Origin: a virus
Lineage: Duplodnaviria; Caudoviricetes
DNA length: 64,000 bases
Reading direction: 5' to 3' (one strand)
Virus record (IMG/VR): IMGVR_UViG_3300046167_000798
The notes beneath the pieces were generated by a model. That model was not told the DNA's origin. It worked only from the letters and a program-made list of their open reading frames with translations, and ran no database searches. Below are positions 46,957-61,944 of the stretch, one piece after another. The position numbers were made by a program, and so were the translations under genes. How positions within the stretch are numbered: position 1 is the first letter of the stretch; each line of letters starts with the position of its first letter.

Positions 46957-46988
46957 TAATATACGAAAAAAATTCCATATATCCAAGC
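46957..46988 (-). promoter_or_regulatory. Bacteroidota-type promoter upstream of the lysozyme
   Basis: CTTG-N20-TATATTAG. Confidence 0.65.
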
Positions 46989-47004: not shown

Positions 47005-47253
47005 TTAGGCTTCTCCTTGTGGGCCATAATACATCCCACTCATAACTTCTTCTTCAGTTGAAGAGGTTTCTTCAAAACCATCAAGAATACGTTGAGTACT
47101 TTCGATGTTTTTTTCTAACCTAGATTCTAGTTCATCTTCGGTTATTATTCCACTATCTATTATAATATCTATAAGAGTTTGCATAACAACATTTTGAGTT
47201 AACAATCTATCGTTAAGTTTTTTTATGTGTATTCTTTGTGATGTTAAGCTCAT
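47005..47253 (-). CDS. Hypothetical protein
   Basis: 82-aa ORF in the array. Confidence 0.55.
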   Translation of the reverse strand: MSLTSQRIHIKKLNDRLLTQNVVMQTLIDIIIDSGIITEDELESRLEKNIESTQRILDGFEETSSTEEEVMSGMYYGPQGEA

Positions 47254-47479
47254 TTAATAGTTCCTTTAATTCGTTTTTATTTTCACTTCCATAAACCAAA
47301 TCACCAAATGATTTTTTGATACTATTATTACCATACCCCATTGCAGAGGCCATTCTTATACAAACAACCTTGTATTCATTAATGTCCATATCATCTGGTA
47401 CATCAAGTTCTACTTTACTTGCTTCTCTATTATTCTCAATAAAGTCTTTGTCTGTATAGCTAAATATAAGTTTTCCCAT
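47213..47479 (-). CDS. Hypothetical protein
   Basis: 88-aa ORF in the array. Confidence 0.55.
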   Translation of the reverse strand: MGKLIFSYTDKDFIENNREASKVELDVPDDMDINEYKVVCIRMASAMGYGNNSIKKSFGDLVYGSENKNELKELLNELNITKNTHKKT

Positions 47480-47491
47480 GTTTTCGTTTAA

Positions 47492-48112
47492 TTATAAGAT
47501 TTCAGCACCTACTGATAACAGAGGTTCTGCTTTCTTGTATTTCATAAATTGAGTAGAACCATCCGATAATTTTACCATCACTCTTTCATTTCTACCGTAT
47601 TTTTTTTCAGATTTAATTGTAGTAGTGTATCTTCTTGATGAATCTGTTATAAGGATTCCATTAAGATGGTCTATCTCATGTTGAGCACATACACACTCTA
47701 GTAATCCTTCATCTCCAAAAAATTCCTCAGAATCTTTCCATTCTTTTCCTTCTTCAATATCAGGTGAAAATATAACTGTTCCTAAATTATCACACTCTAC
47801 TGTAAATGATTTATGTCTTAAAGTTTTAACTGGTTTTTTCATTGTCTTATCTAACGATAAACATTGTTCTACATAAACAACTGTTTCTTTAGATACTTCT
47901 ACAACTTTTGGATTAACTAATAGTAATGGTTCTTTTACGTTTATTAAACAAACTCTATCTGTTAAACCTATTTGATTTGCAGATAATCCCAACCCACCAT
48001 ATCTAGTTAATTCGGTTGTTAATTTTTTTGAAATATTATCTATTTGCTCTTGTGTCATCGGTGTATATTCTAAAACCGATTTTAATTTACTTGGGTCTTT
48101 AATTAGTTTCAT
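47492..48112 (-). CDS. def: Peptide deformylase with C-terminal SecA-tail-like extension
   Basis: GLGLSANQIG, EQCLS, QHEIDHLNG; tail KYGRNERVMV..MKYKKAEPLL. Confidence 0.9.
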   Translation of the reverse strand: MKLIKDPSKLKSVLEYTPMTQEQIDNISKKLTTELTRYGGLGLSANQIGLTDRVCLINVKEPLLLVNPKVVEVSKETVVYVEQCLSLDKTMKKPVKTLRHKSFTVECDNLGTVIFSPDIEEGKEWKDSEEFFGDEGLLECVCAQHEIDHLNGILITDSSRRYTTTIKSEKKYGRNERVMVKLSDGSTQFMKYKKAEPLLSVGAEIL

Positions 48113-49780: not shown

Positions 49781-49812
49781 CAAAGATACGAAAATTATTT
49801 AACATATCCAAA
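49781..49812 (-). promoter_or_regulatory. Bacteroidota-type promoter upstream of 48792..49769
   Basis: Perfect TTTG-N20-TATCTTTG. Confidence 0.8.
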
Positions 49813-49813
49813 T

Positions 49814-50782
49814 TTATTTCCAATTAAATCCTGCACCCATATGTCCGAACGCTGCTGAATCACCAAAGATTGGTTTTCTGAGTTCTAAGAAATCAATTAT
49901 TCCTTTAGGTGATAAATCATATCCTTTGATAAATTCATGTTCTCCATCAACGATTGCAGTTGCTTGAAGTGGTTGGTCATATCCAATCGCATAAGCAAGT
50001 TGAACCATCACTTCTTGTACCTCTGGTCTTTGTTCTAAAATATCTACAGCAATTCTTCTTCCCATATAAGCTGCACTTCTATCAACCTTAGTAGAATCTT
50101 TTCCACTAAATGCTCCTCCACCGAGTGGAACTCTTGGGCCGTAATTATCAACTGCTAACTTTCCTACCAGTTAACCCAGCATCGGCAGTGAACCCACCAA
50201 TGTTCCAATCACCTGCAGGATTACAATGTAATGCCTTCAATAAAAGTATTCAGGATAATCTTCAAAGTATTCCATTACTAATTGTTGTAACTTATCTGAT
50301 GGTGCGTTCTGAAATGAACATACAACTCTAAGTGAGTTACCATTCATAGTAACTTGAGTTTTACCATCGTAAGGATATTTACTAAATACGTGCTTATTAA
50401 GTTCTCTTGATAAGAAATATTCTTGTGGTAAAAATTCTTTATTATCTCTACAAGCATAGCCAATCATAATTCCTTGGTCTCCTGCTCCACCAGTATCAAC
50501 TCCATTTGCAATCTCTGTTGATTGTGAGTTGATATTAATGATAACATTAATTGTATCATCAGTAGTTACATCATGAACTACCTTTACAATGTTTTCTCTT
50601 GTTACTACGGCATTTGAAGTAACTTCTCCTGTGATATAAACTTCTCCCATACCACCACAAGTTTCAATTGCTACTCGTGAGTTTGGGTCTTGTTGTAAAT
50701 GTAAATCTAATAATGTGTCTGATATTCTATCGCACATTTTGTCTGGATGCATCGGTGATACACATTCTGCGGTTCTAATCAT
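49814..50782 (-). CDS. metK: S-adenosylmethionine synthetase, split by apparent indels at about 50160-50240
   Basis: ECVSPMHPDKMCDRISD, GAGDQGIMIGYA, DGKTQVT, restored DAGLTGRK, GGGAFSGKDSTKVDRSAAY, QLAYAIG, FGHMG. Confidence 0.92.
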
Positions 50783-56744: not shown

Positions 56745-56776
56745 TAAATATACGAAAAATATTTGATATATCCAAA
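56745..56776 (-). promoter_or_regulatory. Bacteroidota-type promoter upstream of uvsE
   Basis: TTTG-N20-TATATTTA. Confidence 0.75.
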
Positions 56777-61863: not shown

Positions 61864-61944
61864 AGTTTTAAGTGTTATTAATTATTTACATAGTAAATAT
61901 ACGAAAAATAAATGATATATCCAAGCAAAAAGTGAATTATTTTT
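61864..61944 (-). repeat. Promoter-cassette direct repeat, copy 1
   Basis: ~75 bp near-identical to 62380-62456; contains CTTG-N20-TATATTTA. Confidence 0.85.

What the first reader, a model, noticed from the sequence alone, without database searches (positions are those of the whole stretch)
47492..48112. Peptide deformylase fused to a Flavobacteriia-type SecA C-terminal tail
Seen: after the PDF core the protein ends TTIKSEKKYGRNERVMVKLSDGSTQFMKYKKAEPLLSVGAEIL, a GRN...KYKK frame like the SEC-C motif but with the Cys ligands replaced by a hairpin. From recall (unverified), flavobacterial SecA ends in a similar Cys-less GRN(D/E).V.I...G.....KYK.A.PL. Established: the E. coli SecA C-tail contacts SecB and ribosomes, and bacterial PDF docks at the ribosome exit via its own C-terminal helix. 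Inference: the phage PDF borrows a SecA docking module to capture nascent chains or compete with host SecA.
Basis: partly seen in the sequence, partly recalled or inferred. Interest (0 to 1): 0.6.

Follow-up and report, generated by a model that had tools for sequence, protein, structure and literature searches.

The report
Phage deformylase with SecA-type docking tail
A marine phage's peptide deformylase really does end in the same small cysteine-free module that ends the SecA protein-export motor of Flavobacteria-type bacteria. The module most likely tethers the enzyme to the ribosome, which would explain how some "tail-less" phage deformylases reach their substrate.

Summary
The ORF (minus strand, 47492-48112) is an intact 206-aa peptide deformylase (PDF). 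It has a roughly 10-residue linker and a 37-residue C-terminal module.

- **Match to SecA.** A profile built only from PDF tails retrieves SecA C-termini from 1.84 billion proteins (E down to 5e-6). Profile-profile comparison gives 99.3% probability.
- **Distribution in cells.** In cellular genomes the module sits at the extreme C-terminus of SecA. That holds for 77 of the 80 best loci (Flavobacteriales, Cytophagales, Ignavibacteria, Marinimicrobia, Patescibacteria). It occurs once per genome in 60 of 201 Bacteroidota sampled, in place of the canonical zinc-binding SEC-C motif.
- **Tail swap in phages.** Other phage PDFs end in the canonical SEC-C motif. Four of them form one 100%-supported clade with a Cys-less-tailed PDF, on contigs that share flanking genes. 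The two tails are therefore interchangeable cassettes.
- **Pseudo-PDFs.** Eighteen of 39 tailed PDF-like clusters have lost the catalytic motifs but keep the tail.
- **Fold.** AlphaFold2 predicts a confident beta-hairpin/helix mini-domain.

Best reading: a metal-free equivalent of SecA's ribosome-binding domain, used as the PDF's ribosome anchor. This is inferred, not shown. "Borrowed from host SecA" and "competes with SecA" remain untested.

First readers of this scan flagged the same Cys-free tail on PDFs in at least four other genomes, and canonical SEC-C PDFs in three.

The parts
47492..48112 (-). Peptide deformylase gene with SecA-type tail (206 codons plus stop at 47492-47494)
   Evidence: ORF list and translation. 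Pfam PF01327 at E 2e-21. PHROG 2890. More than 2000 homologues.
47633..48112 (-). Catalytic PDF core, residues 1-160, with motif 1 (G40-Q47), motif 2 (E82-S86) and motif 3 (H145-H149)
   Evidence: Pfam match 10-160. AF2 model with pLDDT above 90. Foldseek hits to solved PDFs at E 1e-9. No type-1B C-terminal helix is predicted after residue 150.
47606..47632 (-). Variable linker, residues 161-169
   Evidence: Lowest pLDDT of the model, about 69. It is the least conserved stretch among close homologues.
47495..47605 (-). SecA-type Cys-less C-terminal module, residues 170-206. It has the K-x-GRN(E) motif (K171-E176), a beta-hairpin at 177-181/187-191, the KYK motif with a helix at 191-199, and a short C-terminal strand.
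   Evidence: Profile search. hhalign 99.3% against SecA tails. AF2 pLDDT 85-90. The ESM Atlas shape search returns viral PDF and SecA clusters.
49786..49811 (-). Phage promoter-like motif heading the transcription unit that holds the PDF gene (genes 49769 down to 47005)
   Evidence: The motif TTGGATAT-N10-TTTCGTAT occurs 4 times, all on the minus strand, with 0 expected. This copy also fits TTTG-N(18-21)-TAnnTTTG. Genes in the unit overlap or abut.
46961..46986 (-). Next copy of the same promoter-like motif, marking the end of the PDF unit

Best explanation
The gene encodes an active-type phage peptide deformylase. Its usual ribosome-binding C-terminal helix is replaced by a short flexible linker and an autonomous 37-residue beta-hairpin/helix module.

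This module is the same domain that ends SecA in Flavobacteriales and several other phyla. There it stands exactly where other bacteria have the zinc/iron-binding SEC-C domain (MBD). It is most likely a metal-free derivative of the MBD, or at least its functional replacement: valines and an alanine (V178, V180, A195) fall on the Cys ligand positions.

In E. coli the isolated MBD is a portable ribosome-binding module that lands near uL23 at the tunnel exit. I therefore infer that the phage module tethers the deformylase to host ribosomes beside the emerging chain. Early in infection, phage proteins, and any host proteins still being made, would then be deformylated co-translationally.

What is shown:
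- Homology of the tail to SecA tails.
- The positional equivalence with SEC-C in both SecA and phage PDFs.
- The confident predicted fold.
- Strong purifying selection on the module.

What is inferred:
- Descent from SEC-C.
- Ribosome binding.
- The benefit to the phage.
For: **Homology to SecA tails.** (99.3%, E 1.8e-20). Structure-based support comes from the ESM Atlas: TM by query 0.73-0.80 to viral PDF and to Bacteroidota/Minisyncoccota SecA clusters.

**Position in cellular genomes.** The module is at the extreme C-terminus of SecA in 77 of the 80 best loci. It occurs exactly once per genome, in a SecA-sized frame, in 60 of 201 Bacteroidota.

**Replaces canonical SEC-C in SecA.** Canonical SEC-C is found in SecA-sized frames in most of the other genomes. 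In five Cys-less genomes checked, SEC-C hits lie only in small non-SecA ORFs. Both tails follow the same linker and K-x-GRND. hhalign of Cys-less against canonical tails gives 84% probability, P 7e-6.

**Same alternation on phage PDFs.**
- Six IMG/VR PDFs end in canonical SEC-C.
- Five of them are 61-66% identical to the Cys-less-tailed P0206.
- The four of these placed in the tree join P0206 in a 100/100 clade.
- The contigs share flanking genes, and PDF similarity stops just before the tail.

**Autonomous fold.** AF2 pLDDT is 85-90 for the module, both inside the whole protein and alone. The linker is at about 69.

**Selection.** The module is more conserved than the catalytic core. Eighteen of 39 tailed PDF-like clusters lost their catalytic motifs but kept the tail.

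**Literature.**
- SUMO-MBD alone co-sediments with ribosomes and cross-links near uL23, and the MBD is conserved in species without SecB (PMC6620043).
- Viral PDFs are described as lacking the ribosome-interacting C-terminal region (PMC5591237).

**SecB rarity.** SecB was found in 5 of 201 Bacteroidota sampled.
Against: - No experiment or computation here shows that the Cys-less module binds ribosomes.
- In E. coli, ribosome binding of the MBD was lost when the metal-binding cysteines were modified (PMC6620043). A fold built without metal may therefore present a different surface.
- Sequence support for descent from SEC-C is solid only over K-x-GRND. The rest rests on position and on the order of motifs.
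- Pfam SEC-C does not hit the tail.
- No solved structure resembles the model above noise.
- Canonical PDF docks at uL22/uL32, not at uL23. A tether at the SecA site would place the enzyme differently.
- The MBD is also reported to bind membranes and SecB, so the partner could be something else.
- The phage's host is not identified directly.
Confidence: 0.55

Rival explanations
1. Decoy or competitor. The module's main job is to occupy the docking site that host SecA uses through its own tail, on the ribosome or on another partner. This would divert or shut down host co-translational export, and catalysis would be secondary.
For: - A large, monophyletic group of tailed PDF-like proteins has lost all three catalytic motifs but keeps the tail.
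- The tail is the most conserved part of the protein.
- In the five genomes checked and the 60 matching genomes of the 201-genome sample, the module occurs only in SecA. A phage copy would therefore have a single host competitor.
Against: - The window's protein keeps every catalytic residue, so catalysis is under selection here.
- Nothing shows that the SecA tail is needed for export in these hosts.
- In E. coli, loss of the tail gives only modest translocation defects (PMC6620043).
- This reading is not exclusive of the anchoring model.
Confidence: 0.15
2. Membrane or translocon targeting. The module takes the deformylase to the membrane or to the Sec machinery rather than to the ribosome, favouring the processing of membrane or exported proteins.
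For: - The E. coli MBD is linked to membrane binding: disrupting its metal site disturbs SecA-membrane binding (bioRxiv 10.1101/613315).
- The module is basic, with 9 K/R against 5 D/E in the last 43 residues.
Against: - No amphipathic or hydrophobic surface is evident. The hydrophobic residues of the module are those predicted to form its small core.
- PDF substrates are nascent chains on ribosomes.
- No Sec-related gene neighbours the PDF gene.
Confidence: 0.15
3. Purely structural C-terminal cap. The tail stabilises the active conformation of the PDF core, as the last residue does in Vibrio phage Vp16 PDF, and has no external partner.
For: The C-terminus matters for the activity of short viral PDFs (PMC5591237). 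The AF2 model of the whole protein is compact enough to give pTM 0.77.
Against: - The same module ends SecA after a long disordered linker, and also ends an AAA/TPR protein.
- It folds confidently on its own.
- It can be exchanged for the unrelated-looking zinc SEC-C tail on the same PDF clade.
- The linker is variable and has low confidence.
Confidence: 0.07

Closest known systems
SecA C-terminal metal-binding domain (MBD, SEC-C motif, Pfam PF02810; E. coli SecA residues ~878-899; PDB 1SX1, 1TM6, 1OZB)
   Same: - Sits at the extreme C-terminus after a flexible linker.
- Has an N-terminal K-x-GRN(D/E) motif and a basic K(Y/F)K motif with a conserved aromatic residue.
- Occupies the identical position in orthologous SecA proteins of one phylum, and on one clade of phage PDFs.
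- Is a small, basic, portable domain.
   Different: - It has no Cys or His ligands. V, V/I and A stand on ligand positions 1-3.
- The hairpin is longer by about 7 residues, and about 12 extra C-terminal residues add a helix end and a strand.
- It is predicted to fold without metal.
- It is not recognised by the Pfam model.
- Ribosome binding has not been tested.
Cys-less C-terminal tail of SecA in Flavobacteriales, Cytophagales, Ignavibacteria, Marinimicrobia and Patescibacteria (no description found in the papers searched)
   Same: It is the same domain: 99.3% hhalign probability, 47-64% identity, the same predicted fold and the same terminal position. The best-scoring cellular tails are from marine Flavobacteriales (Parvicella, Cryomorphaceae, Schleiferiaceae, Croceimicrobium) and two Patescibacteria-like MAGs.
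   Different: It is attached to a 160-residue deformylase through a roughly 10-residue linker, instead of to an 1100-residue ATPase through a linker of about 60 residues. The PDF copies have a conserved V-M-V first strand and end in G-A-E-I-L rather than G-x-W-x-(I/V)-(I/V).
Short viral peptide deformylases (Vibrio phage Vp16 PDF, PDB 5MTC; cyanophage S-SSM7 PDF, PDB 3UWA)
   Same: A phage-encoded PDF core with all catalytic motifs that lacks the type-1B C-terminal helix which docks E. coli PDF on uL22/uL32.
   Different: Those enzymes end right after the core and are described as devoid of a ribosome-interacting region. This family carries an added docking-type domain.
Phage and bacterial PDFs ending in a canonical SEC-C motif (IMG/VR loci L175, L189, L190, L210, L231, L194; earlier scan notes e1-3287979, e1-4840571, e1-1015365)
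   Same: The architecture is the same: PDF core, short linker, SecA-type tail. Four of them share a 100%-supported clade with a Cys-less-tailed PDF, and the contigs share flanking genes.
   Different: Their tail is the metal-binding form, CxCx8C(C/H). I found no paper describing either fusion in the library searched.

Membership tests
Peptide deformylase (Pfam PF01327) | Profile match over the whole catalytic domain above the curated cut-off | tested here: met
   76.7 bits against a cut-off of 22.8, residues 10-160. Foldseek matches solved PDFs at E 1e-9.
Peptide deformylase (Pfam PF01327) | Three catalytic motifs: G-x-G-x-A-A-x-Q, E-G-C-L-S and H-E-x-x-H (metal ligands Cys, His, His; catalytic Glu, Gln) | tested here: met
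   G40..Q47, E82-Q-C84-L-S and H145-E-I-D-H149 are read directly from the translation and are conserved in close homologues.
Type 1B PDF (E. coli type) | C-terminal alpha-3 helix that docks on uL22/uL32 | tested here: not met
   AF2 predicts no helix between residue 150 and the tail module.
Cys-less SecA C-terminal module (defined here) | Significant profile-profile match to the tails of proteins with a confirmed SecA core | tested here: met
   hhalign 99.3%, E 1.8e-20 over 45 columns. The PDF-only profile retrieves SecA tails at library-wide E of 5e-6 or above.
Cys-less SecA C-terminal module (defined here) | Invariant R-N of GRN(D/E) and the two lysines of K-(Y/F/W)-K, with the domain ending within about 9 residues of the protein's C-terminus | tested here: met
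   R174, N175, K191 and K193 are invariant in 141 sequences. The module ends 0-9 residues from the end in 139 of 143 hits.
Cys-less SecA C-terminal module (defined here) | Shared beta-hairpin/helix/strand fold | tested here: met
   AF2 gives the same fold for the tail in the whole protein and alone. The Atlas shape search gives TM 0.73-0.80 and rmsd 0.6-2.6 A to SecA and viral PDF clusters. Both sides are predictions.
SEC-C motif / SecA metal-binding domain (Pfam PF02810) | Metal ligands CxCx8C(H/C) | tested here: not met
   There is no Cys or His in residues 158-206. V178, V180, A195 and E196 align with the ligand positions.
SEC-C motif / SecA metal-binding domain (Pfam PF02810) | Match to the Pfam profile | tested here: not met
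   No hit at E up to 10. In Cys-less-SecA genomes the SEC-C model hits only other, small ORFs.
SEC-C motif / SecA metal-binding domain (Pfam PF02810) | Common descent: same position in orthologues, shared flanking motifs | tested here: inconclusive
   The position is the same in SecA and on phage PDFs. hhalign gives 84% for SecA Cys-less against canonical tails, but only 11% for PDF tails against canonical, and it is solid only over K-x-GRND.
SEC-C motif / SecA metal-binding domain (Pfam PF02810) | Binds 70S ribosomes near uL23, and SecB where present | not testable with these tools
   This is known for the E. coli MBD only (PMC6620043).

The most novel reading that the evidence does not exclude
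SecA-type tails, whether zinc-binding or Cys-less, are exchangeable ribosome-address cassettes that phages attach to deformylases and match to the tail type of their host's SecA. In one large phage lineage the deformylase has become a catalytically dead exit-site binder. That binder uses the SecA address to block or reprogramme co-translational targeting on host ribosomes. This would be a new class of phage translation/secretion take-over factor. It would also be the first functional handle on the undescribed metal-free SecA tail of Flavobacteria and Patescibacteria.
Probability: 0.2. Interest if true: 0.8.

Novelty: new variant of a known kind. Interest (0 to 1): 0.62.

Why it matters
Phage deformylases are among the most abundant auxiliary genes in ocean viromes. 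The literature describes them as lacking the C-terminal region that brings bacterial PDF to the ribosome. How they find nascent chains is therefore an open point.

This family offers a concrete, testable answer: a portable SecA-type address domain. The work also brings out three things I did not find described in the papers searched:

- A metal-free replacement of the SecA metal-binding domain. It is present in about 30% of sampled Bacteroidota and in many Patescibacteria.
- Natural swaps between the zinc form and the metal-free form on one clade of phage PDFs. This is a ready-made experiment on whether the two forms are equivalent.
- A clade of tailed pseudo-deformylases.

Ribosome co-sedimentation with Flavobacterium ribosomes would settle the core claim quickly.

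Tried and rejected
- **Pfam and PHROGs on the tail alone.** No family was found, apart from one meaningless PHROG hit at E 0.047.
- **HMMER of SecA-tail profile A2 against PDB sequences.** Only chance KYK-A-E matches in kinesin light chain TPRs.
- **Structure searches with the 44-residue model.** Foldseek against PDB, VIA-align wide and VIA-align second look gave nothing above noise. The best Z was 3.9, to GINS domains. There were low-Z, low-rmsd matches to small ribosomal proteins that I do not trust. Solved MBD peptides are under 30 residues and are not aligned by that tool.
- **ESM Atlas feature search on the tail.** No usable hit.
- **Complex prediction.** The module alignment was run against uL23 of a Flavobacteriales genome. 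It returned no verdict (score 0.00, controls not run), after five failed submissions. This is not evidence either way.
- **Strict Bacteroidota promoter consensus TTTG-N18-21-TAnnTTTG.** There were 7 hits against 3.2 expected, and only two on the coding strand. This is too weak to name the host. The phage-specific motif is significant.
- **'Stand-alone' 50-residue modules.** The one checked inside a contig lies just after a truncated secA ORF, so it is a split gene and not a free module. Another sits on a 638-bp contig and cannot be judged.
- **Proteins with other N-terminal parts joined to a SecA linker plus tail** (MFS, DEAD-box Helicase_C, unknown). I could not tell real fusions from assembly chimeras and set them aside.
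- **Three repeat proteins among the profile hits** (ankyrin, TPR, HTH). These are false positives made of many weak stretches.
- **Microcystis phage Mel-JY01 PDF.** Its C-extension is different and unrelated.

Full report
**1. The observation**

The window is 30% G+C and all its long ORFs are on the minus strand. The ORF at 47492..48112 (minus) encodes 206 residues.

- Pfam Pep_deformylase matches residues 10-160 (E 2e-21, 76.7 bits).
- PHROG 2890, peptide deformylase, matches residues 6-159.
- The three catalytic motifs are intact: G40-Q47, E82-Q-C-L-S86 and H145-E-I-D-H149.
- After the core come about 46 residues with no Pfam match, even at E 10.

The gene overlaps the upstream ORF by 14 nt and is followed 12 nt later by the next ORF. 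A phage-specific promoter-like motif (TTGGATAT-N10-TTTCGTAT) occurs four times with none expected, always on the minus strand. Two copies bracket the unit 49786 to 47005 that contains the gene.

**2. The tail is real, conserved and SecA-like**

Conservation:
- More than 2000 homologues exist. The 120 closest, 77-98% identical and mostly marine metagenomes including Tara, all carry the tail.
- In 66 distinct tails, 25 of 49 columns are invariant.
- Across 121 close homologues, mean pairwise identity is 87% for the module, 80% for the core and 67% for the linker.

Link to SecA:
- Searching longer proteins with the tail alone returned one protein, a 1081-aa SecA. The match is at its extreme C-terminus (residues 1040-1072), with 64% identity.
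- A profile built from PDF tails only was searched against 1.84 billion representative proteins. It gave 160 hits at E<=1e-3.
- By local phmmer, 39 of these have a PDF-like core and 18 have a SecA core upstream. Most of the rest are short C-terminal fragments.
- The module ends within 9 residues of the C-terminus in 139 of 143 hits.
- hhalign of the PDF tails against the tails of SecA-confirmed proteins gives 99.3% probability, E 1.8e-20.

**3. Where the module lives in cells**

A scan of 185,579 species genomes for K-K-Y-G-R-N-(D/E)-x-V gave 80 best loci. Seventy-seven are the last ~40 residues of a SecA. The other three are contig-edge fragments. None is a PDF.

The organisms are mostly Flavobacteriales: Owenweeksia, Schleiferiaceae, Cryomorphaceae, Croceimicrobium, Thermaurantimonas, Crocinitomicaceae, Parvicella and Chryseobacterium. 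There are also Cytophagales, Ignavibacteria, Marinimicrobia and many Patescibacteria. "Flavobacteriia-type" is therefore correct but too narrow.

In an even sample of 201 Bacteroidota genomes:
- 60 have exactly one copy, always in a frame of 876-1195 codons (59 of the 60 over 1000 codons, i.e. SecA-sized).
- 154 have the canonical SEC-C motif, mostly in SecA-sized frames.
- In five Cys-less genomes that I checked, the SEC-C hits lie in small unrelated ORFs.

The two tails follow the same kind of linker and the same K-x-GRND. They then diverge into P-C-P-C-G-S-G-K-K-Y-K-x-C-H or into a longer strand-turn-strand followed by K-(Y/F/W)-K-x-A.

hhalign of Cys-less against canonical SecA tails gives 84% probability (P 7e-6). 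It is solid only over K-x-GRND. The extended alignment puts V/I on Cys1 and Cys2 and A on Cys3. For the PDF tail alone against canonical SEC-C the probability is 11%.

I therefore treat descent from SEC-C as likely (about 0.8) but not proven. It rests mainly on positional equivalence.

SecB, the E. coli partner of the MBD, was found in only 5 of the 201 genomes.

**4. The same alternation on phage deformylases**

Earlier notes of this scan suggested that PDFs with a canonical SEC-C tail exist. To test this I scanned IMG/VR with canonical tails.
- Six viral PDFs end in CxCx8C(C/H).
- Five of them are 61-66% identical over 152-198 residues to P0206, a PDF with the Cys-less tail.
- The fragment P0155 shares the end of the core and the linker with L210 almost letter for letter. 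It switches tail type at K-x-GRNE.
- In a maximum-likelihood tree of the cores, four SEC-C-tailed PDFs and P0206 form a clade with 100/100 support.
- The contig of P0206 shares flanking genes with those of the SEC-C forms. PDF similarity stops just before the tail, and similarity to L210 and L231 picks up again a few hundred bases further on.

So the two tail types are interchangeable cassettes on one enzyme lineage. This is the strongest argument here that they do the same job.

**5. Fold**

AlphaFold2 on a 52-sequence alignment gives mean pLDDT 92.7.
- The core is a PDF fold (Foldseek E 1e-9 to solved PDFs, including the phage enzymes 3UWA and 5MTC).
- The linker 161-170 drops to pLDDT ~69.
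- The module is confident (85-90): strands 177-181 and 187-191, helix 192-199 and a short final strand.
- The module alone, with 141 sequences, gives the same fold at pLDDT 83.5.

A shape search of the ESM Atlas returns a viral PDF cluster and SecA clusters of Bacteroidota and Minisyncoccota (TM by query 0.73-0.80). PDB searches give nothing above noise.

**6. Who carries it**

- The PDF-plus-tail clusters that carry labels are viral.
- The contexts I looked at are phage-like.
- The 484-kb uncultured phage LR756508 has a 222-aa PDF with the same module.
- By baseplate wedge, the window's nearest relatives are Mel-JY01, LR756508 and the Flavobacterium phages vB_FspM_immuto (38-41% identity). 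This agrees with earlier notes proposing a Flavobacteria-type host.
- The strict Bacteroidota promoter consensus is not clearly enriched in this window.
- The cellular tails that score best against the PDF-tail profile are from marine Flavobacteriales and two Patescibacteria-like MAGs. A 40-residue domain cannot name a donor.

**7. Mechanism**

Established knowledge:
- E. coli PDF needs its C-terminal helix to dock on the ribosome.
- Viral PDFs are described as lacking such a region (PMC5591237).
- The E. coli SecA MBD alone co-sediments with ribosomes and cross-links near uL23. It is conserved in species without SecB (PMC6620043).

Inference: the module is the PDF's ribosome address.

The pseudo-deformylases fit a docking function that does not depend on catalysis. 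Eighteen of 39 tailed clusters lack H-E-x-x-H and mostly the other motifs as well, and one clade of ten has 100/99 support. They also keep the competitor reading alive. Membrane targeting and a purely structural role are less likely, for the reasons given under rivals.

**8. Novelty**

I found no paper describing a Cys-less SecA tail in Flavobacteria or a PDF-SEC-C fusion. [quoted passage not shown]

First readers of this scan flagged the same Cys-free tail on PDFs in four other genomes without follow-up. They flagged canonical SEC-C PDFs in three genomes.

My verdict is a new variant of known kinds (phage PDF; SecA tail domain). It is a clear and cheap experimental target.

Noticed in passing
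P0135, P0140, P0141, P0149, P0150, P0152, P0153, P0177, P0193, P0229 and others; locus L152:2522-3100: There is a clade of phage PDF-like proteins that keep the SecA-type tail but have lost all three catalytic motifs (Q-R-(L/A)-I-D in place of H-E-x-x-H). These are probable pseudo-deformylases. At least two further independent losses are seen elsewhere in the tree.
   Followed up: partly
window 49814-50065 and 50237-50782 (minus strand): S-adenosylmethionine synthetase is read as two ORFs, N-terminal plus part of the central domain, and the C-terminal domain. An unassigned stretch of about 170 nt lies between them. This could be a split gene, an intron or a frameshift.
   Followed up: no
L159:1471-2139 (LR756508.1, 484-kb uncultured phage): A huge phage encodes a 222-aa PDF with the same Cys-less module. 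It also shares a 39%-identical baseplate wedge protein with the window's phage.
   Followed up: partly
L157:4001-6619 (NCBI assembly GCA_000286915.2): An 872-aa AAA_35 plus TPR protein in a cellular genome ends in the same module. This is a third protein context besides SecA and PDF.
   Followed up: partly
P0188, P0202, P0216 (metagenome proteins): Three unrelated N-terminal parts (unknown, MFS transporter, DEAD-box Helicase_C) are each joined at about the same point to a flavobacterial SecA linker plus tail. Whether these are real fusions or assembly chimeras is unresolved.
   Followed up: no
window 46961-46986, 49786-49811, 56750-56775, 61899-61924 (minus strand): There are four exact copies of TTGGATAT-N10-TTTCGTAT, with none expected by chance, each just upstream of a gene run. 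This is a phage-specific promoter-like element.
   Followed up: partly
window 47213-47479 (minus strand) and fragments P0124, P0139, P0143: The 88-aa ORF right after the PDF gene is conserved next to it in related contigs. Some metagenome gene calls run from the PDF tail into it.
   Followed up: no
L156:1-999: In one Patescibacteria-type MAG the SecA tail module is called as a separate 50-aa gene 37 nt after a truncated secA ORF. This is a split or frameshifted secA, and it shows how 'stand-alone' modules arise in databases.
   Followed up: yes
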